This document shows positions 4,046 through 50,901 of a stretch of 64,000 nucleotides of DNA, piece after piece. Source of the stretch: Alphaproteobacteria bacterium (GTDB taxonomy: Bacteria; Pseudomonadota; Alphaproteobacteria; MPNO01; UBA830); assembly GCA_964291215.2 (NCBI GenBank), contig OZ219790.1, positions 1,120,001-1,184,000 of the forward strand. Reading direction: 5' to 3'. The notes beneath the pieces are model-generated. The model made no database searches, had not been told where the DNA came from, and worked only from the letters and a program-made list of their open reading frames with translations. Made by a program: the position numbers and the translations under genes. Position 1 is the first letter of the stretch. Every line of letters starts with the position of its first letter.

Positions 4046-4174
4046 GCCGCTTCTGGCTGTCCCGGGATACCGCAAGGCGGAACCGAAAACCAATACCCCG
4101 AAATCAGGCCAGCTCGATTCAATCAGGAGCGGCAGGATGCGTTCGGGAACAATCGTTGAAAGGAAGGGACCATC

Positions 4175-13108: not shown

Positions 13109-14335
13109 GGTACTGTAACTTGATGTCTGGAAATTTGTCTGAGGTTTGCGCTTTGAGGCGTTTCACTGGGGGGCTAGCCCCCCAGTGAAACGCGGCGCCA
13201 TCGTACTATCCCATGGAGTTGCAAAACCTTCATGGAGGAAGCGAATGGACCTGCGACACACTACGACGATCGGGACTGTTTTGGAACATCTGATCGCAAA
13301 CGGAGCAACGGATCTGGGGCGGGTCTTTGGCCAGCTCTTCGAGCTTGCGATGCAAATCGAGCGCGAGCAGCACTTGAAAGCGGGCCACCGGACGCCGGAG
13401 CGACAGGGCTATGCCAACGGCTACAAGCGGATCGACACCCCCACTGTTACCGTTCAGGTGCCAAACGGTCACGGGGACGACCCGTTCTATCCCCAGTCGC
13501 TTGAACGCGGACAGCAATCTTCTCGCGCCGTAGCCGAGATGTACATCAAGGGTGTTTCCACACGGCAGGATGTAATGCGCGAGTTCGGGAGCCTGTCCTC
13601 TTCTCAGGGGGCCACCAGGTTGCTCGACGAAGAACTCGCCGCGCAACCGGCCCCTGATGAAATACCTGGATGCGCGTTATGGAAAAGCCCGCCATGACGG
13701 CGTTGTGCGCGATGTCGCGGTACTCTCGGCCATCGGAATAGGGGCTGCAGGCACGTTCTGGCGCTCTCTCTCTGTGGCGCTCTCCGAGGCCGAGGTCCAT
13801 TGGAGAGCCTTCCTGGAAAGCTTGCTAGCCCTGCATGGTACGACCTTCATCGTCTCGGATGCCGGGTTGAAAGCGGCACGGTGCTGGGCGCGGCGACATG
13901 GCAGCGCTGCCAGTTCCACTTGGCACAAAACGCCGTGCACCGAACAACGACATCAGGAAACGTATTGGAAAACAGCTCGGAACCATGCGTCCTCACTCCA
14001 AACCGCCGAGGCTGAACTGGGCGCCCTCGTGGCCAGCGACAAGCATCCAGGCTTCCTGGCTGGAAAACAATGCGGGGCTCGCTGTCTTCACCTTGCCCGA
14101 TGCTCACCACAAGCGTATGCGAACCTCGAACGGCATCGAGCGGCCGATCCAGCAAGAGCTCAAGCGGCGCACCTCCAAAGTCAGGGTCTTTCCGAACCTC
14201 GCCTCGTTGGAGCGCCTCTCAACCGCGGTCCTCATCGACGAAAAATGGGAAACCGAAACCAAGGCATACATCAAATGGGAACAGCTCGATGACTGACAGC
14301 TTCACGACAATTTCCAGACATCAGGTTGCGTAATC
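13109..14335 (+). mobile_element. IS256-family element (copy B) with a multiply frameshifted transposase
   Basis: 27-bp imperfect IRs (...tgatgtctggaaatt); MYIKGVSTR, YLDARY, WQRCQFH, RTSNGIER, ELKRRT motifs. Confidence 0.9.
13158..13193. repeat. Perfect 36-bp palindrome in the IS256 left end
   Basis: gcgtttcactggggggc-ta-gccccccagtgaaacgc. Confidence 0.9.
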
Positions 14336-15778
14336 TGTCTTGCAGGACATCGTTATCTGGCAAGGTGATCCCATGCTTGTTGATGTGATGTGATCGGAGT
14401 CCTGATCGTGGCGCGGGTCGACGCGTTCGAGGCTGCGATTTTGAGATTTGCTGACGCGCTGTTACGGCGCGGGGCGCGATTGGTCGGCGTATCCGGGGCG
14501 AGCGAGAGGCCTTGGTTGCCGGGCTCGAAAGCTTGCAGTTTCTGTCGGGGAGAGAGGCGCGGTCAGCCTGGTCTTGTGATTGCGTGCAGGACCTGCCTGC
14601 GCTTGTCGGCATAGTGGTGTCGACGAAGCTGTTGAAGGGTTTGGGCAGCTTGCGTTTGTTGCGGATGATGATTGCAAGGGTGATCGCGTTGTTTGCGGGC
14701 GCGTTCGGAGCATGGAGTCGTCTTCGCGGAAGGTGGCATCGCGGACATGATGATGGCTCTCGACTACCCAGTGTCCATGATTCCATGCGAGCAGCTGTTG
14801 CGGCGAGGCGCGTTCGGCCGAGGTCATGGCGTTTTCTGGATTTCTTGAATTCGACGCGCCGGGTGACGCGGAAGATCTGCTAGTTGATCATCTTCGCCAG
14901 CGGGGTGAAGATGGTGCGCTGGCAGCCATGCGCGGGCTTTTCGTTGTAGCGCTGGCGGTCTTCCAGTTGATGCTCTCTCGAAGGTGCGTTGCCCTTGACC
15001 ATCAGTCCGCGCGATGGGTCTCGATGATCAACCTCGCGGGTGGTGTGGAGCGCGTCGAGGGTGAGCAGACGGCCAGCGCCGTCGCGGCGTGGACGGCAGC
15101 GATCTCCCCGTCGTGATAGTTGAGGATCGAATACCGGCCAGCGAGACTGTCTCGTAATGATCCTCGCCGGTGCGCTTGCCGTCGACCGCGTTGCCGACCT
15201 GCGGCTGCGCGCCGCATCCTCGATCCATCCCGGGTCGGTGTTCTGCAGCACCCGGTGCACGGTGGAGACCGGCTTGTCCCTGTTCTTTCATGCTGCTCCA
15301 GCTCCTTCTGCGTCGTAGTGCGCCGCCGCGCCGGTTCGCAAGCCGCGCCATCACGCACAGCACCGAGGCGATGCGGTGCCCCTGCGCACGCCGGAAAGCG
15401 CCGCTGATAAATCGAGCGCAACTCCTGCGCCGACCAGCGGCGCCCGCAACTCCCACGCCACAGGAAGCGGCGAACGATCCCGCAGCCGACATCGCGACGC
15501 AGCGGAAACACGTAAAGATCCTTCGCCTCCCCGGTCGGTATAGCGCCCGCTGGCGCGCGCATAGCTCCTGCCAACGCACTCCCAGTTCGCCGCCTTGTAC
15601 ATGGTGCCGCTGAACTTCGTCGGCAAGACAAACGACTCCGCAACAAGCAACGGCAGCCTCCCAGTCGCCGCCGCACCATCCGCGACAACGCAAACGAGGC
15701 AAGGCCCGGAAACGACCACCAAGAACAACAAACCTCGTGTTGTTCCCGGCAACCGCCTGAACTGTTCCTCGCGGCGCC

Positions 15779-18659: not shown

Positions 18660-19205
18660 GCCCCCCTCCGTCAAAGACACTTCTCGCTCAATATGCCACC
18701 CTACCATGCGCCCGGGCGTTGCGACAGGACGGCGCGCGGTGCCGCAGGCACCGCATTGGATGTCCAGCGATGCCAGCAGTCGGAGCTCAGGAGAGGCGCC
18801 TGCGCGGAAAGGTGCTCCAGCGCCATCCGAGCCGGCCCACGACCACGCCCCGCCATTTCGGCCGAGAACGGCAGGACGCACGGATCACAGCCCGGCTGGG
18901 GTGGCTAAGAGTTTGTTCCTAAAGTCGCGGGTAGCCCCAATCCATGGTATTCCATCAGGTACACAACCCGCAGATGGAGGGTATCATGGCTTGGAATGGA
19001 GCCACCCAAGCGAAGTATAAGCGTAGCGACGACTTCCGGCAAAACGATCTGAGCGACGAGGAGTGGGCACTCATCGAGCCTCTGATTCCGGCGCAGAGGG
19101 CCGTCCCCGCACGGCGGACCTCCGCCGGGTGTTCGATGCGATCCAATATATGTTGGCATCGGGATGTCAATGGCGCCTGATACCATCTGATTATTTACCG
19201 TTTTC

Positions 19206-20718
19206 GTATCTACTCACCCCTAGTTGGGTTCTGATTGGCCATAGTGCTCGTTGATGATGTCTGCGGCTTTTCCGTCGAGGGCGATCTGGGTGGCAACGAG
19301 TGGGTTGTAGCCGAGTGCGGCCATGGAGGTGAGGTAGCTTGAGCCCCGGCACCATGCTTTTGCGTGGAGCGGAAGCATCCGGACACCTTGACCTTTGCCA
19401 TCCTGATCTTCTGTTCTCCGGCATTGTTGGTGAAGCTGACGTTGGGGTTGTCTATGAAGCGCAGGTTTTCGTGTTTCACGAGACGTTCGTGCAGGTTGTG
19501 CGCGTCGGACTTGCGTCCACGTTTTCCTTTCGTCGGCGGCGGGATGTCGGGCAGTTCCCTGGCGCCCTGATGGTGCGGTAGCGCTTGCGCCCGGCGTCGT
19601 TCAGGGTCTTGGATGCGCTCTTGTTGATCTTGTGGCAGGGAGCAGGCTCTTCATCAGTCGCGCGGTAGCCTCGACGACAAAGGTCAGTTCGCGCAGCAGG
19701 TGGCTGCCACACAGCTGGTGGCTACACTGGTCATAGCCCATGTACGAGGCCCAGCAGTCGTGGGCCAGAACGCCCTTGTAACACGGGCCGATCTCTTGCC
19801 TCCCGGCCGCGCTTGCGGTGCGGGAACTTGCACGTCAGGGTCCCACGACATGGAGCCACTTGCTATTGATCCGAAATCATCGACATCGGGCGTTGCAGGA
19901 GGTGCGCCACGGCGGCCTCCTCCCATGACGCATCGTGAAAGCATAGCCGAGGCCTCGGAGAGCTTGATGCCGGAGATCGCCTGCACGAGCGGCACGGCGC
20001 AGGGACAGCATCTGGGCGACCAGCAGGTTGATGACGAGGGCCTGGATGCCGTACTGCACGGGATGTTGTCGGGGAACCGGCCCCGGGCCTTGCACTTCGG
20101 GCATTCCTCGGCGTCGACGCGGCGCGACCTCGAACACGATGTCGTGCGGCGCTCCCGATCGACGGGGCCGTCGATGTCCCCGGCGCCGCAGGCATCGCAG
20201 GCCGCGACCGTCTCCTCGACGATGGTCTTGCGCAGGTTGTCGCCCATCTGCCGGTTCGGCTTCGGGCCCTTGCTCCCGGCACGCTCTCGTCCGTCTGTGA
20301 CGGCGGCAGACCGGAGTTCCGGCTCGTGCGTGGTCTTCTCCAGAAGGACGACGATGATGATGTCGAGCAGGATGACGAAGACGCGGATCACGGCCTCTTC
20401 CGCCACCTTGCCGGCAGCGCCGCGGTCTTGGCCGCTTCGAACTCCTCGCGCGCCGCCCGTCGCCATCACCCGGCCTTGCGCTTCATCAGCGCGCCGCTTC
20501 CGAGATGCGTTTCCACATACAGATCATGCGGGGGCTGGAGCCCCGGAAGCAGCTGGCACAGCCCGCTCGTCGCCTTCGATCCAAAGTAGCCCACTGGCGG
20601 TCCCCGTCGTTCTCGATTACCACCACTAAACGAATCGGCCTGCAGTGTCAAATCTCCACGAAAACCCGTTCGTTACTCTACCCCGACATCAAGCCGGAAC
20701 CAGGGGGTGAGCAGTTAC
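19206..20718 (-). mobile_element. IS66-family element, copy 2
   Basis: Same IRs as copy 1; 8-bp TSD ccgttttc (19198..19205, 20719..20726). Confidence 0.92.
20466..20594 (-). CDS. Methyltransferase-derived leader peptide in IS66 copy 2
   Basis: Same length and frame as in copy 1. Confidence 0.55.
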   Translation of the reverse strand: MGYFGSKATSGLCQLLPGLQPPHDLYVETHLGSGALMKRKAG

Positions 20719-27163: not shown

Positions 27164-28399
27164 TACCGCCTCCGCAATCGTAGCGAGAAAGAGGAGCGAT
27201 TGTAACGCCCAAGGGCAGCATGTCCACGAAAAAACCGGTCCAATGGACGCCATCGGCAAACCAGTTCCGTAGGCAGCCTCGGGCCCGCTGCCAAGACCAT
27301 TTTTGCTTGTGCCGGCCCGGGTCCTCGGCATGCAGTCAATCGGGATGATCGATGATGGCCGGAAGCCATTTCGATCATGATTTGACGAGAGCAGGAGAAA
27401 TTTCGAAGGCGCCAGACAGCATTTTCTCGCTTCAATGGTCAGTCCCTGATCAATTCCGGATACCTCTGCAATGCAGGCGTGATCGGGAGCAAAATCCACT
27501 GTTTAGGCGAACTTGACCCGGAGCAATGGAGCAACCTGTTGGAAGGCGCACTTGCGTAAGGTTACTGGCGACTGCGGCTATCCGGTTATGATACCGGCCT
27601 TATCGTTTCATGTTTCCCCCGTTCCATAGTGAAGTGCAACCCATGATGGGCTGTGGCCATGTGTTTTTAGACGCATGATGTTGCGGAGCGGTAGCGGCGA
27701 GAGTTTCTGTGCAAGATAAAGGGAGCTTGTTCATGTCCAAAGGCTACCGTTACCTACGAAGAGCGATGCCAGATTGAGGCAGAAAAGCGGTCTTTCACAA
27801 GGTGCGATTGCTCGGCAGCTGGGCCGATCAACAATTTTCCGGGAGATCAAGCGCAACACCGGGGGACGGGGTTACCGTCACAAGCAGGCGCAAAGGATGG
27901 CAGAAACGCAGGGCAGCCTCGTCTGTTTCCTGGCGGTTGACGCCTCGGGTTGAAGCTCAGAAAAAGCTGCGGGAGGGCCCCGAGCAGCGGCCGTTTTCGA
28001 CTGGAAGGCCGTGGGTCGGCAACGGATCCATGATCGCGCATTCATGAAGATCGGAGAGCTGGGGACGTCTTGTGGAAGAAGCTTCAGCGGCGCGGCAAGA
28101 AGCCGAACTGGAAGGGCGGATGCCATTCCGGCCGGGTGGACATTTCCGAGCGCCCTGCGGAGGCAAAGGAACGGATCGGCGACTGGGGGCCATCATCGGC
28201 AAAGCTCACAGTGGAGCTGTCGTGTCGCTCGTGCCACGAAATACACCTTGCTGGGTGGACAGAAAGACACGGTTGGTTCGGTCATGATCCGCCTGCTCGG
28301 CTCTGGTGCGCTATTGGTCCACACAATCACGTCAGACAACGGAGTTCGCAGACCACAGGCGTGTCGCTGAAGCACTTGATGCAGATTTCTTCTTCGCCT

Positions 28400-29988
28400 G
28401 TATCTACTCACCCCTAGTTGGGTTCTGATTGGCCATAGTGCTCGTTGATGATGTCTGCGGCTTTTCCGTCGAGGGCGATCTGGGTGGCGACGAGTGGGTT
28501 GTAGCCGAGTGCGGCCATGGAGGTGAGGTAGCTTGAGCCCCGGCACCATGCTTTTGCGTGGAGCGGAAGCATCCGGACACCTTGAGCTTGACCTTTGCCA
28601 TCCTGATTTTCTGTTCTCCGGCATTGTTGGTGAAGCTGACGTTGGGGTCGTCTGTGAAGCGCAGGTTTTCGTGTTTCACGAGACGTTCGTGCAGGTTGTG
28701 CGCGTCGGACTTGCGTCCACGTTTTCCTTTCGTCGGCGGCGGGATGTCGGGCAGTTCCCTGGCGCCCTGATGGTGCGGTAGCGCTTGCGCACGGCCCGGC
28801 GTCGTTCAGGGTTTTGGATGCGCTCTTGTTGACCTTGTGGCAGACCTCGCGGAGCAGGCTCTTCATCAGTCGCGCGGTAGCCTCGACGACAAAGGTCAGT
28901 TCGCGCAGCAGGTGGCTGCCGCACAGCTGGTGGCTACACTGGCCCATGTACGAGGTCCAGCAGTCAGGACGCCCTTGTAGCACGGGATGATGCCGATCTC
29001 TTGCCTCCCGGCCGCGCTTGCGGTGCGGGAACTTGCACGTCCCGTCAGTGACGACATGGAGCCACTTACTGTTGATCCGAAATCATCGACATCGGGCGTT
29101 GCAGGAGGTGCGCCACGGCGGCCTCCTCCCATGACGCATCGTGAAAGCATAGCCGAGGCAGGTTGCCTCGGAGAGCTTGATGCCGGAGACCGCCTGCACG
29201 AACGCGACGGCACGGCGCAGGGACAGCATCTGGGCGACCAGTAGGTTGATAACGAGGGCTTGGATGCCGATGCCGTACTGCACGGGGCCCGGCATGTTGT
29301 CGGGGAACCGGCCCCGGGCCTTGCACTTCGGGCATTCCTTGATCTCGGCGCGGCGCTCGACGACCTCGAACACGATGTCATAGAGGACGCGGCGCTCCCG
29401 ATCGACAGGGCCGTCGATGTCAGCGCCGCAGGCGTCGCAGGCCGCGACCGTCTCCTCGACGATGGTCTTGCGCAGGTTGTCGCCCATCTGCCGGTTCGGC
29501 TTCGGGCCCTTGCCGTTGCTTCCGGCACGCTCTCGTCCTTGTCCGTCTGTGACGGCGGCAGACCGGAGTTCCGGCTCGTGCGTGGTCTTCTCCAGAAGGA
29601 CGACGATGATGATGTCGAGCAGGATGACGAGGACGCGGATGACGGCCTCTTCCGCCACTTTGCCGGCCGCACGCAGCGCCGCGATCCGGGTTTTGGCCGC
29701 TTCGAACTCCTCGCGCGCCGCGTTGACCGTCGCCATCACCCGGCCTTGCGCTTCATCAGCGCGCCGCTTCCGAGATGCGTTTTCACATACAGATCATGCG
29801 GGGGCTGGAGCCCCGGAAGTAGCTGGCACAGCCCGCTCGTCGCCTTCGATCCAAAGTAGCCCACTGGCGGTCCCCGTCGTTCTCGATGACCACCACTAAA
29901 CGAATCGGCATGCAGTGTCAAATCTCCACGAAAACCCGTTCGTTGCTCTACCCCGACATCAAGCCGGAACCAGGGGGTGAGCAGTTAC
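28400..29988 (-). mobile_element. IS66-family element, copy 3 (least eroded)
   Basis: Same IRs; 8-bp TSD cttcgcct (28392..28399, 29989..29996); TSRNSGLPPSQ motif. Confidence 0.92.
29736..29864 (-). CDS. Methyltransferase-derived leader peptide in IS66 copy 3
   Basis: Same length and frame as in copies 1 and 2. Confidence 0.55.
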   Translation of the reverse strand: MGYFGSKATSGLCQLLPGLQPPHDLYVKTHLGSGALMKRKAG

Positions 29989-38525: not shown

Positions 38526-38592
38526 TGCCCGGTGCGCGATGCTCGCCAGCGAAACAGCCGCGCCAAGCAAGTCTTCATGGAAGGAAAGCACG

Positions 38593-39387
38593 ATGAACAC
38601 CTATAGCGACTTGGCCGTGGAAAGGCTGTTCCGCATGGATGGAGAGGTCGCCCTCGTCACCGGCGCCGGCAGCGGCTTCGGCAGAATCGCAGCCCTGACC
38701 TTCGCCAATGCCGGCGCCTCGGTCGCCGTGACCGACATCGACATGACGACGGCCGAAGCAGTGACCAGGGAGATCACCGAGGGCGGCGGCCACGCTGTCG
38801 CACTGCACCTCGACGTGTCGGACCGAAACGCAGTCGGTGAGCTCATCGACAGCGCCGCACAGATCCTCGGCGGGCTGCATGTGCTCGTGAACAATGCCGG
38901 CATTGCCCGCCGCGGACCGTCGGAGGACCTGTCTGACGAGGACTGGAATGCCATCGTCGAAGTCAACCTGAGCGCCGTCTTCGCCGGGTGCCGCGCGGCC
39001 GCGCCGCACATGTTCGCGCACGGCGACGGCCGCATCATCAACATATCCTCGATCATGGGCCTGGTCGGCAACAGGATGTTCCCGCACACCGGCTACCAGG
39101 CGACCAAGGGAGCCCTCGTCAACCTGACGCGGTCGCTCGCCGTGGAATGGGCGGGCCGGGGCATACGGGTCAATGCTCTCGCACCGTCGTTTTTCAGGAC
39201 CAATTTTGGTGCCGGTCTCATGCAGTCGAGTCCCGAGTTCGTGCAGAAAATCGAAGAAGCAACGCCGCTTGGACGCTTCGGAGAGCCATGGGAACTTGCC
39301 GGCGGCCTGCTTTTCCTGGCCAGCCGCGCCTCGTCGATGGTGACCGGCGTCACGCTTCCGATCGACGGCGGCTGGACTGCAGCATAG
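38593..39387 (+). CDS. SDR oxidoreductase
   Basis: TGAGSGFG, NNAG, YQATK. Confidence 0.92.
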   Translation: MNTYSDLAVERLFRMDGEVALVTGAGSGFGRIAALTFANAGASVAVTDIDMTTAEAVTREITEGGGHAVALHLDVSDRNAVGELIDSAAQILGGLHVLVNNAGIARRGPSEDLSDEDWNAIVEVNLSAVFAGCRAAAPHMFAHGDGRIINISSIMGLVGNRMFPHTGYQATKGALVNLTRSLAVEWAGRGIRVNALAPSFFRTNFGAGLMQSSPEFVQKIEEATPLGRFGEPWELAGGLLFLASRASSMVTGVTLPIDGGWTAA

Positions 39388-39403
39388 GCTTTCGGTGCCT
39401 CTT

Positions 39404-40757
39404 TCAGGCGCGGCCCGCCGGCCCACCGAGAATCGCGAGGAGTTTCCGCGCGTCCTCGAGGGTTTCAAGTTCGGCAACCATTGCCGCGACCTCATCGATC
39501 CGGTCGCTCGCCAGCATGTCGGCGGCACAGGCCCGGAACTTGTCCGCAACCTGCGCGTGGGACAACGGGTTCTCCGACGTTCCCAGCGGGTGATCACAGC
39601 GGCCGTTGAATGCGTCGCCGTTCCGCATCGTGATCTCGACCGTAGCCTCGCCGGGCGCCAAGCCGGGTTCGGGCCGCACCTCGACCTGTTCTGCCGCGAA
39701 TGCGCGAAGCACCGGATCGTCGTAGCAGGCGGCTCGAACTGATCGAGGGTCAGGGTCCCGGCCCGCAGGAAAACGGCAGCGACGTAGTGGGCCGACAGCA
39801 GGGCTTCGAACCTGCCCTCGTAGGTCCCGAAACCGCCGTGCATGTCAAACGGAGTCTGGCTCAGCGCGACCTCGACCCTGGCGATGTCATCGAACGCGAT
39901 GCCGTCGCGGGCGATAAGCACAGACAGCGCGGTGAGGACCTCCTGAAGCGCAGTCGCCGCAGGCCAGAGCCGCAGTGAAATCTGCTGCAGCTCCCAGCGT
40001 CGGCCGAGATCCCTTGTCGCCAGCTCCGGAGTCCCGCCCCCGGCCCAGGTCGCGTAGAGGCCGCCGTCCGGCGCCGTCAGGAACTCCCGTGTGGCAATGA
40101 AATCCCGCTCGGCGAGCAGCGCCGCCATCAGCCCGGACAGCGCGGCACGGCACTGGTGCCACTTGACGGTCGGCGTTCCCCAGGCCGCAAAGGTGCCGGC
40201 CGACTGGCTGCCGGCCAGCCCGAACGCGCGCGCCATGCAGTCGCCATCGAAACCTCGGAGCCGACCGACCGCGGCCGCGGCACCGAAGGGCCCGATGACA
40301 CCGGGACCGTGCCAGCCGCGCTTGCGAAACGCCGCATGGTCGAGTCCAAGCCCGATTCGCGCCGTGACCTCCAGTCCAGCGATGAGCGCCGCCAGCAGTT
40401 CGCCGCCCGCAACGCGGTCGCGTTCCGCAATCGCCAGCGCCGGAGGCACCACCTCGGGGGTGATGTGCGTGAGCGTAGACCTGTGGACATCGTGACAGCG
40501 GTGATCAGGTAGCCGTTGAGAAGCGTAGCGCCGGCAAGAGAGAGGCCGCCGCCGCCGACGACAGTACTCTCGCCGGACTGCGCGAGGGTCGATGCCATCC
40601 CGGTTACCTGCGTCGTCTCCTCGCCGCGATGACCGGCGAGCGCGCAGGCCAGCGCGTCGAGCAGGAGGGTCTTCGCCGATTCGCGCACCGCCTGCGGCAC
40701 ATCCTCGACGCACAGACCCGAAGCGAATTCCGCCAGCGCCGCCGTCGCGTCCGTCAT
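39404..40757 (-). pseudogene. MmgE/PrpD family protein, frameshifted
   Basis: LLDALACALAG, RGWHGPG, AGSQSAG, GTSENPLS; frame breaks near 40490 and 39730. Confidence 0.8.
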
Positions 40758-40832: not shown

Positions 40833-42296
40833 ATGCTCACCGGAGCAGAATACCTCGACAGCCTGCGTGACGGCAGGTGCATCTATCTCGGCAGGGAGCG
40901 GGTTGATGACGTCACAACCCATGCCGCTTTCCGCAATGCGGCCGCATCATTCGCGAAGATCTACGATCTCAAGCGGGCAACGGAAAACCGTGATCCGATG
41001 GTCTCGGAAGAGGGCGGGGAGGAGTTTTCTACCTATTTTCTGATGCCGCGGTCGCGCCGGGATCTCGAGCGGCGTTTCGAAACCCATCGCAGGATCGCAT
41101 CATGGAGCTACGGGTTGCTCGGCCGTTCGCCGGATAATTTCCCGAGCTATCTGAGCGGCCTCGCCACCCATCCACAACTCTTTAACGATCTCCGTGAGGG
41201 ATCCGGCGACAACCTGTCCGGGTATTATCGGCGCGCCAGGCGCAATGACCTGTTCATCACCCACACCGTCACCAATCCGCAGACGACACGCCGGCCAGGC
41301 CGCCCCGGGCCGGCCGGCGGCGCCTCTCCGACCCTCAGGGTGGTGGACGAGGACGATGCCGGCGTCACGATAAACGGCCTCAAGATGATCGGCACCTCGG
41401 CTGTCTTCTGCCACGACGCGTGGGTCGGCAACCTCCAGCCAGTTCCCGACGGCCACGAGGACGAGACCATCACCTGCGCGGTGCCACTCAGCGCGCCGGG
41501 AGTCTCCATCTGGTCGCGCAAGCCCTACGAGCGGTTTGCCGGAAGTGAGTTCGACATGCCGCTGACATGGCGCTACGATGAAACCGACGCCGCCGTGTTG
41601 TTCGAAAACGTCCGGGTTCCGTGGGAGAGTATTTTTCTCCACGACAATGTCGAGATGACCCGGGAGATTTACATGCGGACGCCCGGCCACTCGCTTGCCA
41701 ATCATCAGGCCAATATCCGCTTCCTCGAGAAGCTGAAGCTGCTGACGGGGGTCGCCCACGCGGTATGCCGTGCCAACAACACGCTGCATATCCCGGCGGT
41801 GCAGGACGTTCTCGGGCAACTCGCCGCCCGGCTCGGCCTTCTCGAGGGGCTGGTGATGGGGCAGCTGCATGGTTGCGAGAAAATGGTGCCTGGCTCCGGA
41901 TATGTCACCGTGAACCGCCGCTACATGTACGCAGCCCTCCACTGGTGCACGAACCACCATTCGGAAATCTGCGACACGGTACGCGAGCTCCTTGGCGGCG
42001 GCCCGATGCAGATGCCAGCCGATTCGTCGATACTCGCCGATCCGGAGCTCTGCCAGAAATTCGAAAGGTACTGGTCAACGCCGGAACAATCGGCCAAGGA
42101 CCGCATGAAACTGCTCAGACTCGCTTGGGACCTGTTGAATTCGGAATTTGCGGGCCGCAACACGCAATACGAGAAATTCTACGCCGGCCCCGGCTTCGTG
42201 ATGGATTCCTACAGCTTCGCAAGCTGCCCGTGGCCGGAGCTCGAGGCGGCCGTGACCGAGCTGATGGCCGGCTACGACGCCGAAACGGTGGTCTGA
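40833..42296 (+). CDS. 4-hydroxyphenylacetate 3-hydroxylase family flavin monooxygenase (HpaB-like)
   Basis: TGAEYLDSLRDGR, GRSPD, YDETDA...VPWE, SEFAGR..QYEKFYAG. Confidence 0.92.
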   Translation: MLTGAEYLDSLRDGRCIYLGRERVDDVTTHAAFRNAAASFAKIYDLKRATENRDPMVSEEGGEEFSTYFLMPRSRRDLERRFETHRRIASWSYGLLGRSPDNFPSYLSGLATHPQLFNDLREGSGDNLSGYYRRARRNDLFITHTVTNPQTTRRPGRPGPAGGASPTLRVVDEDDAGVTINGLKMIGTSAVFCHDAWVGNLQPVPDGHEDETITCAVPLSAPGVSIWSRKPYERFAGSEFDMPLTWRYDETDAAVLFENVRVPWESIFLHDNVEMTREIYMRTPGHSLANHQANIRFLEKLKLLTGVAHAVCRANNTLHIPAVQDVLGQLAARLGLLEGLVMGQLHGCEKMVPGSGYVTVNRRYMYAALHWCTNHHSEICDTVRELLGGGPMQMPADSSILADPELCQKFERYWSTPEQSAKDRMKLLRLAWDLLNSEFAGRNTQYEKFYAGPGFVMDSYSFASCPWPELEAAVTELMAGYDAETVV

Positions 42297-42864
42297 AACG
42301 CCGCCCGCAGTCGCACAGCGGCTCCGAAGACGACAGCCTTCAGCAACCGCCAAGGCCGCGCACGCGCCGGACGCCGCGGTCATTGCGGACGCTTCTCCAC
42401 CTGGCGGGAGGCCGGCTATCGCAAGGTGATCCCATGCTTTTTGATGTGATGTGATCGGAGTCCTGATCGCGGCGCGGGTCGACGCGTTCGAGGCTGCGAT
42501 TTTGAGATTTGCTGACGCGCTGTTGCGGCGCGGGGCGCGATTGGTCGGCGTATCCGGGGCGAGCAAGAGGCCTTGGTTGCCGGGCTCGAAAGCTTGCGGT
42601 TTCTGTCGGGGCGAGAGGCGCGGTCAGCCTGGTCTTGTGATTGCGTGCAGGACCTGCTTGCGCTTGTCCGCATGGTGGGAAGCTGTTGAAGGGTTTGTGC
42701 AGCTTGTTGCGGATGATGATTGCGAGGGTGATCGCGTTGTTTGCGGGCGCGTTCGGAGCATGGAGTCGTCTTCGCGGAAGGTGGGTATGCGGTGATGGCT
42801 CTCGACTACCCGGTGTCCGCGATTCCATGCGAGCAGCTGTTGCGGCGAGGCGCGCTCGACCGAG

Positions 42865-44160
42865 CATCCATGTTTCCTGGCAAGGTTTTTGCGGGTGTCT
42901 GTGGTGATGTTTTCTGTGGTTGTCCACAAGCGGTGTGGGATTTGCTCTGCGAGCGAGGCGACATGAAGCTTGTGGTCCCGGCGGCGGGTTGCCATCCATT
43001 GGTCACGTGAACGCGGCTACCTTGCCATCCCCGGGCACGTGACCGGCCGGGTTCCAGGTGTCCCAAGGCGGTTCGATCTCCTCGATGTCGGCCTCGACGA
43101 TGATCTGCAGACATTCTCCCCAAGTCGTGTCGTAGAGGGAGACTATCGAGACAGTCCCGATCGCGCTCTCGGCAGGGCCGTGTCTCCTTCGCTCACTCAC
43201 CGGTGCTTCAGGCAACGCTGCTGTCGCAGCAAGGTGTTCGCCAGAGCTTGCGCATCACGGCGACAATCGCGACCTTGCTTGCCGGCAGTCTTGAGGCGCA
43301 CCAGGTCCGCGTTGAAGCGTGCCGGCTGCGGCCATGAACAGGAGATCGCGTGGCCTTCGGCGCCGGCCACGGATGTGCCGAGCACCGTGGTCGTTGGCGC
43401 CACCCCGATCAAGGCTGCCGACGCTGCCGAGTTCGGGCATCCAGAAGGGCCGCGGCGGTCACCGGATCGAGGTCAGAATGGTGTACCTCTGCTCGGGATC
43501 ACCGGCGATCACCGCTTTGATCGCCGCGCCGGCGGTCATCGAGATCGGCCGCCGAGGCCCTTGTGACGGTCTCGCCATCCACCTCATCTGCCACGCGTCG
43601 ACAAGCGCGGCACCAGGAGATCCTCCAGGCTCTTGAGGAAGGCGGAGCCACAGGCTCACCGTGCCGATCCTGGCGTCGACGCGGTTGGCCCATCGCCTCG
43701 GCGAAGCGCCCGCAACGGGTTGACGAGAATAACCTCGAAGCCCCGGTCATGAAGACACTGGTGAACCTTGCGGTGATAGCGGCCTGTCGCCCACCACCCG
43801 GCTCACCCCGAGGCCGCGAAGCCACCTGCCCGTGGCGTCGTTCGCAAAACAATGCGCCAGATGTCCAGACTGGCTGACCCCTGCTACTACCTTGACCATC
43901 GCTCCTCGCCTTGTGATAATACGGGTTCAAACCCAGGCATCTAGCGAGGGATGTCAAGGGAGGTTGCCAAACTCGGACGCGGCTCTGTCAAGGTCAAAAC
44001 GGCAACCTCCGCGGAGATCGTTTGATCCCCTGTGCGTGTTCGCTCAGGGGAGCGGAATCTCTCTGCAACCATGAACCGGACGCTCTCCCACAGATCCACA
44101 TTTTCCCGCCCCCAACTGCTGTGGATGATTTCATCATCAAGGGGACAAAACCTGGTCATA
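42865..44160 (-). mobile_element. IS110-family element, copy 1 (eroded)
   Basis: Paralogous to 47696..49093; IGVAP and ARFNADL...LANTLL motifs; AG core at 42863..42864; the junction near 44160 appears to have lost about 8 nt. Confidence 0.85.
43895..44065 (-). ncRNA. Putative bridge RNA of IS110 copy 1
   Basis: Stem ggaggttgcc (43959..43968) / ggcaacctcc (44001..44010) encloses ctcggacg and aggtca, which match this copy's target; donor loop is degenerate. Confidence 0.65.
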
Positions 44161-45502
44161 TGGCGTGTTCGGTTTTCTTGAATTCGACGCGCCGGGTGAC
44201 GCGGAAGATCTGCTTGACTAGTTGATCATCTTTGCCAGCCGGGTGAAGATGGTGCGCTGGCGGCCATGCGCGGGCTTTTCGTTGTAGCGCTGGCGGTCTT
44301 CCAGTTGATGCTCTCTCGAAGGTGCGTTGCCCTTGACCATCAGTCCGCGCGATGGGTCTCGATGATCAGCCTCGCGGGTGGTGTGGAGCGCGTCGAGGGT
44401 GAGCAGACGGCCAGCGCCGTCGCGGCATGGACGGCAGCGATCTCCCCGTCGTGATAGTTGAGGATCGAATACCGGCCAGCGAGACCGTCTCGTAATGATC
44501 CTCGCCGGTGCGCTTGCCGTCGACCGCGTTGCCGACCTGCGGCTGCGCGCCGCATCCTCGATCCATCCCGGGTCGGTGTTCTGCAGCACCCGGTGCACGG
44601 TGGAGACCGGCTTGTCCCTGTTCTTCCATGCTGCTCCAGCTCCTTCTGCGTCGTAGTGCGCCACCGCGCCGGTTCGCAAGCCAGCAAAATCACGCACAGC
44701 ACCGAGGCGATGCCCCTGCGCGCGCCGGAAAGCGCCGCTGATAAATCGAGCGCAACTCCTGCGCCGACCAGCGGCGCCCGCAACTCCCACGCCGCAGGAA
44801 GCGGCGAACGATCCCGCGTCACGACGCAGAGGAAACACGTAAGGATCCTTCGCCTCCCCGGTCGGCGCCCGCTGGCGCGCGCATGGCTCCTGCCAACGCA
44901 CTCCCGGTTCGCCGCCTTGTACATGGTGCCGCTGAACTTCGTCGGCGAGACAAACTTCTCCGCAACAAGCAACGGCAGCCTCCCGGTCGCCGCCGCACCA
45001 TCCGCGACAACGCAAACGAGGCCCGGAAACGACCACCAGGAACAACAAACCTCGTGTTGTTCCTGGTGGTCGCCTGAACTGTTCTTCGCGGCGCCAGCCA
45101 ATCCAACGGTCCCGCGCAGCCGAGGGCGCCCGTCTGCCAGCCCGCAGCGCCAATCCACCGCCCGCGCCAGGTGAACACGCAGACCTCGACCGGCAAACTG
45201 CTTGAAACCAGGATACCGTCAACCGCACGACTCCAGCGACATCAGGCCGCGCAAGGCGCACAACCACATCCCGGAGCGCAAAACCCTCCAGAGTCGTCTC
45301 AAAAAAAATCCGCTGCCTCTTCCATCACAACCCCACTTCCAGTCTGAAGTGCAACATCCGGCCCTTCCAACAAACCTGGCGTGGGATCGCCGTGCCGGCT
45401 ATCGCAACCGGCGATGACAACATTCCCAAAATCTGGAATACTGGCAAGGTCCGCTGCAGCCGGGCTGCGGCTGCACGAACACCATCCGGGGACCAGACCG
45501 CG

Positions 45503-45829
45503 ATGATCGATACGGTGGCAGCAAGGAAGCGACTGGAGGCACGCCTGCAGGCGTTGACCTCCAAACTGACGGAAATCGACGAGGATCTGAAGGAGCACGG
45601 AGCCGAGGCCGACTTCGAGGAACGGGCCACGGAAATTGCCGGCGACGAAGTCCTCGAAGGGCTCGGCCTGCAGGGTCAGCGAGAAGCCACGCAGATCAAG
45701 GCTGCCCTCCAGCGGATCGACGACGGCACATACGGGATCTGCGTGCAATGCGGCGAGGAAATCCCGGAAAAGCGCCTCGAGCTCCTGCCTCACACCCCGC
45801 TCTGCACCGATTGCATGGCCGACGGTTAG
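45503..45829 (+). CDS. TraR/DksA C4 zinc-finger protein
   Basis: ALQRIDDGTYGICVQCGEEI..KRL...P.TPLCTDC. Confidence 0.9.
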   Translation: MIDTVAARKRLEARLQALTSKLTEIDEDLKEHGAEADFEERATEIAGDEVLEGLGLQGQREATQIKAALQRIDDGTYGICVQCGEEIPEKRLELLPHTPLCTDCMADG

Positions 45830-45879
45830 AGCGCGTCCAGCTGCGATGTCCCTCCAGCCGCGCCGCCAAGCGGGCGGCG

Positions 45880-47130
45880 TCACCCCTTCTCGCCCCCGCT
45901 CTTGCGGACCTGCGCATGGACGAAGCCGCTCTCGAGCAGGCGCGTGGCGGCTTCTTCGTCCAGCTCGAGCACATCACGCAGGATTTCGGCCGTGTCGGCG
46001 CCAAGCGCGGGCGGATAGCTGTGCCGGTCGACGCCGGACCGCGACATCTTGACCGGATTCCCCGCAACCCTGACCGCCCGGCCAGCACCGTCGTCAAGGT
46101 CCAGAACCATGTCGCGTCCCGTGATCTGGGGGTTGGAGAGCGCCTTTTCCAGCGTGTTGACCTCACCGACCGGGATGCCGGCTTCAAGGAGCCGCGGCAC
46201 CCAGTGATCCGCCTCGTGTCCGGCAAACGCCTCCTCAAGGAGCTGCCACAAGAGGTCACGATTGACGTAACGGTCCTCGTTGCGCACAAAGCGCGGGTCC
46301 TCCTTTAGCCGCTCAAGCCCGAGCACATCGCAGAGTCCCTGCCACATTCGCTCGGTGTTGGCCGTGATCACGAGGGACGTTCCGTTGGCGCAATCGAAGC
46401 CGCGATAGGTCGGGATCGAATCGTGGCCCGACCCCTGCCGGCCCGGGTTCTTGCCCGAATGCAGATAATAGGCGGCCTGGTAACACAACATCGAGACCTG
46501 GCAGTCCAGCATCGAGACGTCAATGTACTGGCCCTTGCCGGAACGGCGTCGCTCTTCCAGCGCGGCAAGAGCGCCGATGACCGAAAACATGCCGGCAGAC
46601 AGGTCTCCGATCGGGATACCGGACCGGACCGCCGAACGACCGGCTTCTCCGGTCATGCCCATGCCTCCCGAGACCGCCTGCACGATCATGTCATAGGCCG
46701 GGCGGTTGCGATCGGGTCCGGTCTGGCCAAAACCGCTGATCGAAGCCCAGATGAGCCCGGGATTGCGGTGCGACAGATCGTCATAGGCGAGCCCCAGACG
46801 GTCAAGAACGCCGGGGCGGAAGTTTTCGAACAGGAAATCCGACCTGTCGGCCAGTTTCTTGACCAGATCGAGGCCCTCGGTCGTCTTCATATCCACAACG
46901 ATGCTTTTCTTGTTGCGATTGACCGACAGGTAATAGCAGCTGTCGTCGCCGACGAAGTTCGGCGGCAGGGCCCGCGACCAGTCGCCGGCCGGCGCCTCGA
47001 CCTTAAGCACCTCGGCCCCGAGATCGGCGAGGACCATCGTGGCGTACGGCCCGGCAAGAAACTGGGTCAGATCCAGTACCCGCAAGCCACCAAGCGGCCC
47101 GCCGCTCCTGTCTCGTTGTCCGTCCGGCAT
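45880..47130 (-). CDS. CaiB/BaiF family III CoA-transferase
   Basis: LRVLDLTQFLAGP, NRNKKS, ENFRPG, AYD. Confidence 0.92.
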   Translation of the reverse strand: MPDGQRDRSGGPLGGLRVLDLTQFLAGPYATMVLADLGAEVLKVEAPAGDWSRALPPNFVGDDSCYYLSVNRNKKSIVVDMKTTEGLDLVKKLADRSDFLFENFRPGVLDRLGLAYDDLSHRNPGLIWASISGFGQTGPDRNRPAYDMIVQAVSGGMGMTGEAGRSAVRSGIPIGDLSAGMFSVIGALAALEERRRSGKGQYIDVSMLDCQVSMLCYQAAYYLHSGKNPGRQGSGHDSIPTYRGFDCANGTSLVITANTERMWQGLCDVLGLERLKEDPRFVRNEDRYVNRDLLWQLLEEAFAGHEADHWVPRLLEAGIPVGEVNTLEKALSNPQITGRDMVLDLDDGAGRAVRVAGNPVKMSRSGVDRHSYPPALGADTAEILRDVLELDEEAATRLLESGFVHAQVRKSGGEKG

Positions 47131-47695
47131 CTGCTGAAACTCCGGCCCAAGGGCGATCGCAAAATCCGATCCGAGCGGCCCGCAAACGGAACACAAGGAC
47201 AACGCGCCGCAGCCACAACCTCGGGCAGGCCCGTTCGCGGCAGTTCTACTTCAGTTGCCAGGCGCCCGCAATTTGCCGGCGTCCACCCCAACCGCCGCGC
47301 CTCGATCAGGAGTCCGCAAAGATGCAGGATGCCGACGGGCGATACGTCCTGCAGCGCCCTTCGGACCGACGCGAAATTCGCGGCCAGTCGGTTCGTGGGG
47401 CGATCCTGGATCCCGAACCGGCAAGGGGATGTCGCAACCGTGGCGGACAGGCTGCCGGTTTCGATTCGTCCGCACATAGCGGTGGTGCCGGGAAGGGCCT
47501 GACATGACTGCACATCCGGTTCCGACGATCGACATCGCCCCCTTCGTCCGTGGCAGCGAAGACGGGCGGGACAGTGTTGCGCGGGCCGTGGACCAGGCCT
47601 GCACCGGATTCTTCGCGATCACCGGCCACGGCGTGTGCGATGAACTGGTCGCGCAGCTGCGAGGATCTGCGGTCGATTTCTTTGCCCTTCCCGAG

Positions 47696-49093
47696 CATCC
47701 ATGTTTCCTGGCAAGGTTTTTGCGGGTGTCTGCGGTGATGTTTTCTGTGGTTGTCCACAAGCGGTGTGGGATTTGCCCTGCGAGCGAGGCGACATGAAGC
47801 TTGTGGTCCCGGCGGCGGGTTGCCGTCCATTGGTCACGTGAACGCGGCTACCTTGCCGCCCCCGGGCACGTGACCGTCCGGGTTCCAGGTGTCCCAAGGC
47901 GGTTCGATCTCCTCGATGTCGGCCTCGACGATGATCTGCAGACATTCTCCCCAAGTCGTGTCGTAGTAGGGAGACTGTCGATACAGTCCCGATCGCGCTC
48001 TCGGCAGGGGTGAGGGCCGTGTCTCCTTCGCTCACTCACCGGTGCTTCGGTCGACCAGCAACGCTGCTGTCGCAGCAAGGTGTTCGCCAGAGCTTGCGCA
48101 TCACGGCGACAATGGCGACTTTGTGGGCCTTGCCGGCGGTCTTGTGGCGTTCGAACACCAGATCCGCGTTGAAGCGTGCTGCCGAGGTCGCGGCCAGGAG
48201 ATCACGTGGCCTCCGGCGCCCGCCTCGGATATGCCGAGCACCGTGGCCACTGTCGTTGGCCATCGGCGCCACCCCGATCAAGGCTGCCGACGCTGCCGAG
48301 TTCGGGCATCCAACAAAGAAGGGCTGCGGCGGTCACTGGACCGGGGATCGAGGTCAGGGTACCTCTGCTCGGGATCACCGGCGATCACCGCTTTGATCGC
48401 CGCACCGGCAATCATCGAGATCGGCCGCCGAAGCCCTTGTGACGGTCTCGCCATCCACCTCATCTGCCACCTACCTCAACTTGGTCCGCACGTCGACAAG
48501 CGCGGCGCCAGGAGATCCCCCAGGCAACTGAGGAAGGCTTCCTGAGGAGCCACAGGCTCGAGATCGCACCGTGCCGATCTTGGCGTCAACGCGGTTGGCC
48601 CAAAGCCTCGGCGAAGCCCTCAACGGGCAGGACAACCTCGAAGCCCCGGTCATGAAGACACTGGTGAACCTTGCGGTGATAGCGGCCTGTCGCCCACCAC
48701 ACGGGTTACCTCGAGGCTGCGAAGCCACGTGCCCGTGGCGTCGTTCGTAAAACGACGCCCCAGATGTCCAGACTGGCTGACCCCTGCTACTACCTTAACA
48801 ATCGTCCCTTGTTCCTCGCCTTATGATGATACGGTTCAAACCCAAGCATCCATTCAGGACGCAAGGGACGCCAAAGGAGGTTGCCACGCTCGGGAACGGC
48901 TCTATAAAGCCAAGGACGGAACGGCAACCTCCGCGGAGATCGTTTGATCCCCGCTCCCCTGTACGTTCTCACACAGGGGAGCGGAATCTCTTTGCAACCA
49001 TAGCTCTCCCATAGTCGAGGTTATCCACATTTTCCCGCCCCCAACTGCTGTGGATGATTTCATCATCAAGGGGACAAAACCTAGTCATATAAG
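47696..49093 (-). mobile_element. IS110-family element, copy 2
   Basis: No terminal IRs; AG (CT on element strand) core at both junctions; IGVAPMANDSG...IRGGRRRPR...KVAIVAVMRKL motifs. Confidence 0.92.
48800..48992 (-). ncRNA. Putative bridge RNA of IS110 copy 2 (5' hairpin, target-binding loop, donor-binding loop)
   Basis: Hairpin 48951..48984; target-loop stem 48876..48885 / 48923..48932; donor-loop stem 48803..48811 / 48862..48870; loop sequences match target and donor. Confidence 0.8.
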
Positions 49094-49938
49094 GACGACA
49101 AGCGCACGGTCGAGCGCCCCGAAGACCGCATCAGCCGCGGCTGGAACGCGATCGGCGACCGGGCGCTGGCCTACTCGCTCGGCAACGAAACACCGCCGGA
49201 TCTCCAGGAGAGCTTCGCGACCGGCCTGTCGAGATGCCCGACGCACTCTACTTCACCTGCGGACGGGCGAGAGCCTTCTTCGCCCCCAACCTGTGGTCAC
49301 CGGCGGCGCCCGAACTCCGTAAAATCATGGAACGCTACTACCGCGTGATGAAGGGGCTTTCGCACACGGTCGTGGAGGTCTTCGCCCGCGCGCTCGGCAA
49401 GCCCGACGATTTTTTCGACGACAAGATCGACCGTCATTCGTCGAGCCTGCGGCTGATCCGGTATCCCGGCCGCATCACAGGCGCTGCGGAAAGGCAGCGC
49501 CGGCGAGCACCATGATTACGGCGCGCTCACCATTCTGCATGGCAGCAACCTGCCCGGCGGACTGCAGGTCAAGCTGCGCCACGGCGGATGGATCGATGTC
49601 GTCCGCCCCGAAGGCAGTTTCATCTGCAATATCGGCGACGCGATGATGCGCCGGACCAACGACCGCCGGGTTTCGACGCTTCACCGCGTCGGGCCGCCCG
49701 AGACCGGAGACGACAGCCCCGACCGGATCTCGATCGTGTATTTCCACAATCCCAACTACGATGCCGGGATCCGCTGCCTCACGGCTCGCCGGCGAGATAT
49801 CCGCCGTCGGACTTCGACGCCTTTTTCATCGACAAGCTGATGCGCGGTTCATGCAGACGGGCCGCCGCGCGAAACGGGCGACTGCTGAGACGTTCTCGGC
49901 AGCAGCCCGTGACCGCACCGCCGTGGGCCGCCACGAAC

Positions 49939-50901
49939 TCAACCCGAACCGAAATGCGCGTTCAGGCTTCTCCGCAGGCGCCCCGGATTCAGTCCGCGCC
50001 TCGCGGCGACGCCAGCCAACTCCTCAAAGGCGCCACCAGGATCCGCAGCCTTGTGCAGGCGCTTGTACGCGTCTTCGCGACGGGCAAGGCCAAGCGCTTT
50101 GGCGACGAGCTCGGTATAGTGAATCACCTCCACGCCGCTGCTCTTCTCCTGCGGAGACAGGTTGCGGTAGCATGAGTGGTAAAGTGCGGCAACGGCGTCC
50201 ACCCTGCACCGCTTGGCCTCCTCGAACAGTCCGCTCACCAGCCGGGCATGTTTCTCCTTTCCGACAAGGCCGATCTGCAGATTGCCGCAATCGTGTCCCC
50301 ATTCGGGCCCCGCGGAGCCGTCGATTACCTCGAGCCCGCGGACCGCGGCGAGAATGGCGCGGGCGAAACGGGAATCGCGGCGCGCCTGTTCATTGTCCCC
50401 ATGGGTATGGAGCATCACCCTCCGCTCCACATGATTGCGGAATTCGAGCCGGTCCAGGTTTTGGACAATGAACTCCGTGACATGCAGATAGGGCACATCG
50501 AGGGAAATACCGGTCTCGGCGAAGGTGTGATCCATGTGCGCGTGGCATGACGGGCAGTAGGTCAGCACCGCCTTCGGGGCATAGCCCTCGAACTTGCTGA
50601 GCGTCTGCCGGGTGATGGTCTCCGACAACTCGACATCGCCGTGGGCGCTGTGAATGATCCCGCAACAGGTGGACGGCCCGCCAAGGGCAACGAAGTCGAT
50701 GCCCATTTCGCTCAGGATCGCGGTGATGGTTTCGGCAAGCGCGACGGTCCTCAGGACGTTGCAACCGAGATAGAGGACATAGTCGTGCGCCGCCCTGTTC
50801 TTCTCGGTGCCTGCGCCCCAGCACCGCGTCTCGTCGCCCCGGGTGGCGTCCGCGAGCGGCTCAATGGGACCAAAATAGCTGGCGTAATCGAATTTCGGCA
50901 T
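49939..50901 (-). CDS. CCG-domain Fe-S protein (HdrB/GlpC-like)
   Basis: YLGCN, TCCG, CPSC, LHVTEF, HDCG...HSC. Confidence 0.8.
   Translation of the reverse strand: MPKFDYASYFGPIEPLADATRGDETRCWGAGTEKNRAAHDYVLYLGCNVLRTVALAETITAILSEMGIDFVALGGPSTCCGIIHSAHGDVELSETITRQTLSKFEGYAPKAVLTYCPSCHAHMDHTFAETGISLDVPYLHVTEFIVQNLDRLEFRNHVERRVMLHTHGDNEQARRDSRFARAILAAVRGLEVIDGSAGPEWGHDCGNLQIGLVGKEKHARLVSGLFEEAKRCRVDAVAALYHSCYRNLSPQEKSSGVEVIHYTELVAKALGLARREDAYKRLHKAADPGGAFEELAGVAARRGLNPGRLRRSLNAHFGSG

What the first reader, a model, noticed from the sequence alone, without database searches (positions are those of the whole stretch)
42855..49102. Two IS110 paralogues whose bridge-RNA target guides differ and each match their own insertion site
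Seen: both copies share the stem ggaggttgcc/ggcaacctcc upstream of the recombinase, but the loop differs. Copy 2 target is ttcccg-AG-gacgac; its loop has ctcgggaa (48889..48896, 8/8 reverse complement of ttcccgag) and aggacg (48913..48918, 6 contiguous matches). Copy 1 target is cgaccg-AG-gtcatg (right half taken from the uninterrupted ISAs1 near 14821); its loop has ctcggacg (43972..43979, 7/8) and aggtca (43991..43996, 6/6). Known: IS621-type IS110 elements use a bridge RNA with target and donor loops around a CT core. Inference: both guide arms have been retargeted within one genome on a constant scaffold, by mutation and selection or by an undescribed guide-rewriting process.
Basis: partly seen in the sequence, partly recalled or inferred. 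Interest (0 to 1): 0.92.

Follow-up and report, generated by a model that had tools for sequence, protein, structure and literature searches.

The report
Fast-evolving guides of IS110 bridge RNAs
Two broken copies of a known kind of RNA-guided jumping gene carry different predicted guide sequences that closely match their landing sites, and across dozens of copies in this genome and intact relatives elsewhere these guides differ several times more than silent sites, likely through ordinary mutation plus selection for fresh targets rather than active rewriting.

Summary
Both elements are dead IS621-type IS110 copies (CT core, two-loop bridge RNA) from a family with 75 anchored loci in this genome; 64 keep the target loop and none of these has an intact recombinase. 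Guides track flanks genome-wide (RTG 265/295, LTG 169/205 matches; no shuffle of 5000 reached either). Copy 2's empty site is confirmed by a sister-strain contig. Copy 1 is not a clean case: its right guide is the allele of another site type, as in 10 copies of its clade at this site type. The two copies are as far apart as each is from an intact foreign element, so this pair does not show retargeting inside one genome; shallower clades probably do. New: guide positions diverge about 4-11 times faster than four-fold sites in three sets. Single guides sit unchanged at 5-8 imperfect sites, which refutes rewriting at each insertion. Best reading: point mutation, arm shuffling and selection for unoccupied sites, mostly inside other insertion sequences. 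Guide-target covariation itself is published.

The parts
42863..42864 (-). Core dinucleotide (CT on the element strand) at the right-end junction of copy 1
42865..44161 (-). IS110 copy 1 (e4, B/C/D/E clade), dead; left-end junction lost in an 8-nt deletion shared with 8 other copies at this site type
43197..43899 (-). Recombinase pseudogene of copy 1 (approximate end); frameshifted by many 5-8 nt deletions
   Evidence: family assigned through other copies and intact relatives
43905..43950 (-). Predicted donor-binding loop of copy 1, damaged by an 8-nt deletion and substitutions
43959..44010 (-). Predicted target-binding hairpin of copy 1
43972..43979 (-). Right target guide of copy 1: B-type allele on a C-type site (4 of 5 programmable positions match)
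43991..43999 (-). Left target guide of copy 1 (C-type; 4 of 5 positions match the site read from sister copies)
42421..45022 (.). Degraded ISAs1-family element that hosts copy 1 (approximate ends)
   Evidence: repeats D12, D14, D19; plasmid hit annotated ISAs1 transposase; PF13808 hits about 700 nt from sister sites
14360..15700 (.). Uninterrupted copy of the same ISAs1-family element; its site carries a deletion allele that lacks the right-target match
47504..47693 (+). 5' part of a non-haem dioxygenase (DIOX_N) gene interrupted by copy 2
   Evidence: PF14226 E=3e-12
47694..47695 (-). Core dinucleotide at the right-end junction of copy 2
47696..49091 (-). IS110 copy 2 (e5, clade A), dead; absent from the same site in runs X3 and X4
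47709..47714 (-). -35-like hexamer near the right end; in the circle it would lie 17 nt from the -10-like hexamer at 49084-49089
   Evidence: read from the sequence; function inferred from IS621
47696..48035 (-). Right end with remnants of a 96-aa hypothetical cargo gene that is whole in intact relatives
48036..48802 (-). Recombinase pseudogene of copy 2 (start codon mutated to ATT, frameshifts; approximate end)
48812..48866 (-). Predicted donor-binding loop of copy 2: LDG 48845-48851 and RDG 48820-48824 match the element's own ends; handshake dinucleotide at 48818-48819
48876..48932 (-). Predicted target-binding hairpin of copy 2
   Evidence: (fold of 48810-48960, z -3.47)
48889..48896 (-). 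Right target guide of copy 2 (8 of 8 complementary to core plus right target)
48913..48921 (-). Left target guide of copy 2 (4 of 5 programmable positions plus core)
49092..49093 (-). Second core dinucleotide of copy 2
49094..49840 (+). 3' part of the interrupted dioxygenase gene, frameshifted; run X3 shows no gap over this stretch, so the frameshift likely predates the insertion
   Evidence: (PF03171 E=0.0066, below cut-off)

Best explanation
Shown: family size, guide/flank covariation, excess guide divergence, scarcity of perfect empty sites for most guides, broken recombinases, and the empty site of copy 2 in a sister strain. Inferred from IS621: circle formation, a junction promoter, and RNA-DNA pairing that picks the site. 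Inferred here: a guide change is amplified when it matches a multicopy dispensable target (two ISAs1-type elements and other repeats); ectopic recombination later shuffles alleles among copies, which explains copy 1's mismatch; and dead copies such as copy 2 were likely moved by an intact recombinase in trans while their own RNA, or a sister's identical RNA, chose the site.
For: Covariation in G000: RTG 265/295 (n=59 copies; shuffle mean 205, max 229), LTG 169/205 (n=41; mean 121, max 142); still significant after collapsing identical pairs. Intact relatives carry other guides that match their own flanks. Rates: G061, all 8 copies with a loop, 8 of 10 guide columns variable against 22 of 150 four-fold columns (Fisher p=2e-5; parsimony 1.7 vs 0.16 per column); 9 near relatives 3.3 vs 0.83; 9 G000 lineage representatives plus L041, 1.6 vs 0.35 extra alleles per column (p=6e-4). 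No odd mutation spectrum: G061 guide ts/tv 4/3 against 10/6 at four-fold sites. Single-step intermediates exist: e13 joins the B left arm to the C right arm and sits at a unique site matching 5/5 and 5/5; e73 and e48 differ by one LTG base at the same site type. Site use: 13 occupied A sites, and only 1 of 13 empty host copies has a perfect site; 0 of 20 occupied but 13 of 23 unoccupied C hosts carry the target-destroying allele. Full 12-nt perfect empty sites number 0-5 for 6 guides tested. Occupied hosts are no closer to each other than to empty ones (0.035 vs 0.036; 0.044 vs 0.046). Clade A (19 copies, 1.3% SNP diversity) is fixed for frameshifting deletions, yet copy 2 is absent in X3 and X4.
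Against: Depletion is not general: 16 of 34 empty E hosts keep the same site as the occupied ones. The excess is weak or absent in some sets: B/C/D/E clade p=0.054 (28 of 33 copies used, 5 left out for indels in the loop), clade A has no shared guide variant in 18 copies, L044/L047 differ at 0 of 10 guide positions at 4.9% four-fold divergence, and most deep pairs are saturated. Several G061 alleles differ by 2 adjacent changes with no intermediate sampled. Four-fold sites in GC-rich genes may understate the neutral rate; the 10 guide columns follow the published register but were fixed after I had seen the alignments; copies are mosaic and not independent. G061 is an 8.8-Mb MAG of unstated quality and may mix strains. 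No intact helper of this family was found in G000. No expression or activity data.
Confidence: 0.68

Rival explanations
1. Guide-coding DNA is a local mutation hotspot (unpaired loops in a single-stranded circle, or self-binding of the RNP to its own guide DNA), and new alleles simply land on whatever site they now match, without positive selection.
For: Large excess of change over four-fold sites even in very shallow clades. IS621 is reported to excise a single-stranded circle and to act on half-matches (10.64898/2026.08.31.748434, abstract and Discussion). The element's own guide DNA is by construction a perfect half-match for its RNA (inference).
Against: No transition or deamination bias in guide changes. 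Unpaired neighbours inside the loop (LTG positions 1-2, RTG position 8, hairpin loop) are not hypervariable in G061. Clade A shows no shared guide variant in 18 copies.
Confidence: 0.13
2. Guides are occasionally rewritten by copying from near-matched target DNA, for example through an aborted target-target synapsis with short strand exchange and mismatch repair.
For: Excess guide divergence and two-base jumps without sampled intermediates; e73 to e48 looks like a guide corrected toward the site it occupies.
Against: Same guide at 5 distinct imperfect sites in G063 and 8 loci in G068; 17 of 33 copies in one clade and 2 of 8 in G061 mismatch their own flank; LTG positions 1-2 never follow the flank; no reverse transcriptase or other accessory enzyme in the elements, only a 96-aa ORF without Pfam match.
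Confidence: 0.08
3. The differing guides are old, neutrally diverged lineages imported by horizontal transfer; coexistence in one genome is incidental and there is no acceleration.
For: L041 from another MAG nests among G000 lineages in the best tree and is as close to copy 1 as copy 2 is; the same guide allele occurs in two different MAGs (L044, L047). This likely explains the copy 1 versus copy 2 contrast in part.
Against: Cannot explain 5 guide combinations among G061 copies that differ by 0.5-4% in the gene, nor four site-matched RTG alleles in a clade 1-3% deep.
Confidence: 0.11

Closest known systems
IS621 bridge recombinase system (Durrant et al. 2024, PMC11208160; Hiraizumi et al. 2024, PMC11208158)
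   Same: PF01548 plus PF02371 recombinase in intact relatives (IS621 transposase E=2e-28), CT core, bridge RNA in the left end with 5' stem-loop, target loop and donor loop, guides pairing with both strands, handshake base, junction promoter motif. Covariation of guide and target across orthologues is how the bridge RNA was found (passages).
   Different: Here the right guide matches 5-6 bases beyond the core and the left guide about 5, against 2 and 7 in wild-type IS621; a 96-aa cargo ORF follows the recombinase; all 64 loop-bearing copies in G000 are dead; targets are mostly other insertion sequences, not REP elements; several guides coexist among near-identical copies.
IS622/ISCro4 (10.1101/2025.05.14.653916)
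   Same: Same architecture and CT core; ISCro4 transposase is the second PDB hit of an intact relative (E=5e-24).
   Different: Distant in sequence; that work (passages) is about engineering and the passages seen do not treat natural guide turnover.
ISPpu9 with MITEPpu9/ssr9 in Pseudomonas putida (PMC12288879)
   Same: Non-autonomous IS110-derived units proposed to move with a transposase supplied in trans (passages).
   Different: There the unit is a small-RNA module sharing one REP target; here full-length decayed elements keep distinct target guides.

Membership tests
IS110 family, IS110 (IS621-like) group | Recombinase with DEDD RuvC-like domain (PF01548) and Tnp domain (PF02371) with catalytic serine | tested here: met
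   Met for intact relatives (P0002: both domains; D9, E51, D93, D96, S232 invariant) and for PF02371 pieces in 16 G000 copies. The window's own fragments gave no Pfam hit; they are linked by 91-93% identity at aligned CDS positions to L041.
IS110 family, IS110 (IS621-like) group | Short core (CT) on both sides of the element, single core at the empty site | tested here: met
   Copy 2: empty site in X3; empty host sites across the genome. Copy 1 has lost its second core by deletion.
IS110 family, IS110 (IS621-like) group | Long left end encoding a bridge RNA with 5' stem-loop, target loop and donor loop | tested here: met
   Folding z -3.47 and -2.83; consensus structure of 16 sequences with 8 of 37 pairs showing changes on both sides. 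Prediction only.
IS110 family, IS110 (IS621-like) group | LTG and RTG covary with the target | tested here: met
IS110 family, IS110 (IS621-like) group | LDG and RDG match the donor junction | tested here: met
   RDG follows the right donor in 26 distinct left ends, exactly or with a G-T wobble at one position; copy 2 matches exactly; copy 1's loop is damaged.
IS110 family, IS110 (IS621-like) group | Handshake guide of the donor loop pairs with target position 7 | tested here: met
   In one search, LTG position 7 is T in 5 left ends, all with handshake A; it is C in 20, 19 with G; 1 has A with A. Related sequences, not independent.
IS110 family, IS110 (IS621-like) group | Promoter formed at the circle junction | tested here: inconclusive
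   -35-like and -10-like hexamers 17 nt apart across the predicted junction; no expression data.
IS110 family, IS110 (IS621-like) group | RNA-dependent, reprogrammable recombination | not testable with these tools
   Needs an assay; the window's copies lack a whole recombinase.
IS1111 group | Long right end carrying the RNA and long sub-terminal inverted repeats | tested here: not met
   The RNA lies upstream of the gene; group features taken from PMC11208160 passages.

The most novel reading that the evidence does not exclude
IS110 bridge-RNA target guides are rewritten at low frequency by copying from near-matched target DNA, giving these elements a built-in way to acquire new specificities; this would account for guides diverging about ten times faster than silent sites among near-identical copies.
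Probability: 0.08. Interest if true: 0.92.

Novelty: new member of a known kind. Interest (0 to 1): 0.5.

Why it matters
How an RNA-guided element without a spacer-acquisition machine changes targets is an open question. These loci make it testable: natural allelic series of guides one or two bases apart on a near-identical scaffold, with occupied and empty sites countable in the same genome, and intact recombinases available from related MAGs. The faster-than-silent divergence of guides was not found in six literature searches, though most subscription papers are outside the library and the supplements of PMC11208160, which I did not open, may hold these loci. The data also suggest IS110 acting as a parasite of other insertion sequences and dead copies still moving under guide control. 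The mechanism of the system itself and cross-orthologue covariation are published, which caps the interest.

Tried and rejected
Rfam scan of 42000-50000: no match. Pfam on the window's recombinase fragments: none. PDB search with a 135-aa fragment: none; the intact relative hits IS621. DNA search of 60 relatives: 2 weak hits only; protein search of 25 family genomes: 1. Two intact IS110 genes in G000 (about 415 aa) belong to another group with no BLAST match to this family and were rejected as the source; whether they could act as helpers is untested. Host elements of A and D sites could not be named; a PF14236 fragment lies in the host of the F and I sites. Composite amplification of host plus IS110 as the cause of shared sites: not supported, on 260 nt of mosaic host sequence. 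Assembly artefact as the cause of the deletions: X1 contigs match deleted stretches without gaps, but X1 may be the source sample. Motif search at deletion hotspots: nothing clear. Whether the runs hold an intact helper recombinase remains open. Metagenome scan gave only one close locus, L120. Earlier findings: none. No structure or complex prediction was run, as homology to solved IS621 was already clear.
Full report
Observation. The stem, the two loops and the four quoted matches are at the stated coordinates. Both elements lie on the minus strand, so the core is CT as in IS621. For copy 2 the flanks joined at the duplicated core restore the reading frame of a DIOX_N dioxygenase. A 9922-nt contig of run X3, another sample of the same study, joins 47693 to 49092 with a 2-nt overlap, and X4 also lacks the element. 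Copy 2 matches 9 of 10 programmable positions (LTG positions 3-7 and the five RTG bases next to the core); random CT-centred genomic sites do so 0.00019 of the time. Copy 1 has lost its second core in an 8-nt deletion. Its site is read correctly from 4 sister copies with intact junctions, but the uninterrupted ISAs1 near 14815 carries a different right half. Copy 1 matches 8 of 10 positions (0.00086).

What the elements are. G000 holds 75 anchored loci of this family; 64 retain the target loop and 57 are near full length. None of the 64 has a whole recombinase: each carries 20-49 deletions against the intact relative L041, and the best tblastn hits in the assembly are all gapped. Intact relatives are 315-aa proteins with PF01548 and PF02371, an invariant DEDD motif and serine, and homology to IS621 transposase at E=2e-28; they occur in Alphaproteobacteria MAGs. 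The left end folds into a 5' stem-loop, a target hairpin and a donor hairpin. The donor guides follow the element ends, and the handshake base covaries with LTG position 7 (T with A in 5 of 5, C with G in 19 of 20), as described for IS621 (PMC11208158, passages). That constraint fits the low variability of that one guide column (1 change against 2-5 in the other nine columns).

Covariation. The 64 loops show 10 RTG and 11 LTG alleles (read). Guide and flank agree at 265 of 295 RTG positions (59 copies) and 169 of 205 LTG positions (41 copies); none of 5000 shuffles reached either value, also after collapsing identical pairs. Intact relatives have other guides that match their own flanks. Most G000 sites lie in multicopy elements: C sites in one ISAs1-family element, B, E and a secondary A site at three positions of a second one, and the main A site in an unnamed repeat. 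Copy 2 is one of few insertions in single-copy DNA.

Copy 1 and the within-genome claim. In copy 1's clade only 16 of 33 copies carry the RTG of their own site; copy 1 is one of 10 B-type guides on C sites, against 8 C-type. All but one of the mismatching alleles belong to the same pool, which points to ectopic recombination or insertion guided by a sister's RNA (inference). The two window copies differ at 5 of 10 guide positions, 8.6% of other left-end positions, 7.0% of the gene and 14% of four-fold sites; L041 from another MAG is 6.9% from copy 1 and nests among G000 lineages in the best tree. G000 monophyly is not rejected (p-AU 0.19), while a clade of only A plus B/C/D/E is (p-AU 0.01; 17 of 64 copies used). 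So this pair shows two subfamilies, not proven in-genome retargeting. The B/C/D/E clade (100/100 support, 1-3% deep, four site-matched RTG alleles) and G061 are the better cases.

Rates. In G061, 8 copies with a loop show 5 guide combinations; the six of them with a near-whole gene differ by 0.5-4% (leaving out L077, whose 3' end is interrupted). Eight of 10 guide columns vary against 22 of 150 four-fold and 18 of 220 other left-end columns (Fisher p=2e-5 and 4e-7; parsimony 1.7, 0.16 and 0.09 per column). Nine near relatives give 3.3 against 0.83, and nine G000 lineage representatives plus L041 give 1.6 against 0.35 extra alleles per column (p=6e-4). Against this: B/C/D/E p=0.054 (28 of 33 copies), clade A no shared variant in 18 copies, L044/L047 0 of 10 at 4.9% four-fold divergence, and deep pairs saturate. 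The guide columns follow the published register but were fixed after I saw alignments; copies are mosaic; four-fold sites may understate neutrality; G061 may mix strains.

Mechanism. Rewriting at each insertion is refuted: one guide sits at 5 distinct imperfect sites in G063 and at 8 loci in G068, 2 of 8 G061 copies share a guide matching neither flank and with no perfect empty site, and LTG positions 1-2 never follow the flank. Guide changes show no special spectrum (ts/tv 4/3 against 10/6). Single-step intermediates exist (e13, e73, e48). Perfect 12-nt empty sites number 0-5 for the 6 full guides tested. All occupied A sites are perfect while 12 of 13 empty A hosts are mismatched; no occupied C host (0 of 20) but 13 of 23 unoccupied ones carry the allele without the right target. 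Occupied hosts do not cluster, which favours separate insertions. E sites are a counter-example, with 16 of 34 empty hosts keeping the site. I therefore favour point mutation and arm shuffling with selection for unused, multicopy targets (0.68) over a local mutation hotspot (0.13), neutral import (0.11) and rare templated conversion (0.08). Clade A is fixed for frameshifting deletions while copy 2 is polymorphic between strains, so dead copies were likely moved in trans, or homogenised after insertion; no helper is in the assembly.

Relation to what is known. Guide-target covariation across 5511 pairs, longer RTGs in some orthologues and low conservation of the target loop are in PMC11208160 (passages; preprint passages). 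Half-match activity and single-stranded circles are in 10.64898/2026.08.31.748434 (abstract and Discussion). Trans-mobilised IS110 modules are proposed in PMC12288879 (passages). I also saw the abstract and outline of 10.64898/2026.08.14.744561 and passages of 10.64898/2026.10.21.760802, PMC13604230 and 10.1101/2025.05.14.653916; none of these passages treats the rate of natural guide change. Six searches listed no paper on it; supplements were not opened.

Verdict. A real, well-supported new member family of a known system. Interest 0.5.

Noticed in passing
All G000 copies of this family; also the ISAs1 copies at window 14360-15700 and 42421-45022: Dense small deletions, mostly 5-8 nt: 281 distinct, 2490 in 64 copies, 68 hotspots shared by 8 or more copies across lineages; modest excess of microhomology, no clear motif; weaker linkage to nearby SNPs than SNPs have to each other (four-gamete 0.38 vs 0.14 within 30 nt), which hints at recurrent origin or deletion-biased conversion.
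   Followed up: partly
L052:2462-2752; remnants at window 47696-48035: Conserved 96-aa ORF downstream of the recombinase in near relatives; no Pfam match; Atlas hits are unnamed hypothetical clusters.
   Followed up: partly
Recombinase gene of the G000 copies (e.g. window about 43470-43485): The D-type guide (4+2+5 positions) has 76 matches in G000, apparently largely because the same word occurs inside the element's own recombinase gene: possible self-targeting.
   Followed up: no
G000:C2:3297676 (L220): An empty B-type host keeps about 9 extra nt resembling the element's left end at the core: a possible imprecise excision scar.
   Followed up: no
Empty B and E host sites in G000: About 13 of 20 empty B sites and 10 of 34 empty E sites have a small deletion over or beside the core; could be background hotspots or repair of failed attacks.
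   Followed up: no
G000:C1:883760 and C1:481582: Two intact IS110 genes of another group (about 415 aa, 96% identical elements), in a genome where this high-copy family is fully decayed.
   Followed up: partly
window 2042-5603: Long arrays of 27-nt repeats that look like glycine/aspartate-rich RTX-type nonapeptides (label recalled).
   Followed up: no
window 15778-17309, 19205-20713, 28399-29983; 7096-7488 with 13109-13536: Three copies of another decayed repeat and a pair of long inverted segments, probably further insertion sequences.
   Followed up: no
window 38575-40757 (-): Frameshifted gene resembling MmgE/PrpD family (label recalled, not tested), suggesting small deletions also hit single-copy genes.
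   Followed up: no
L216:1355-1705: Host of the F and I sites carries a PF14236 (DruA/DUF4338) fragment.
   Followed up: no
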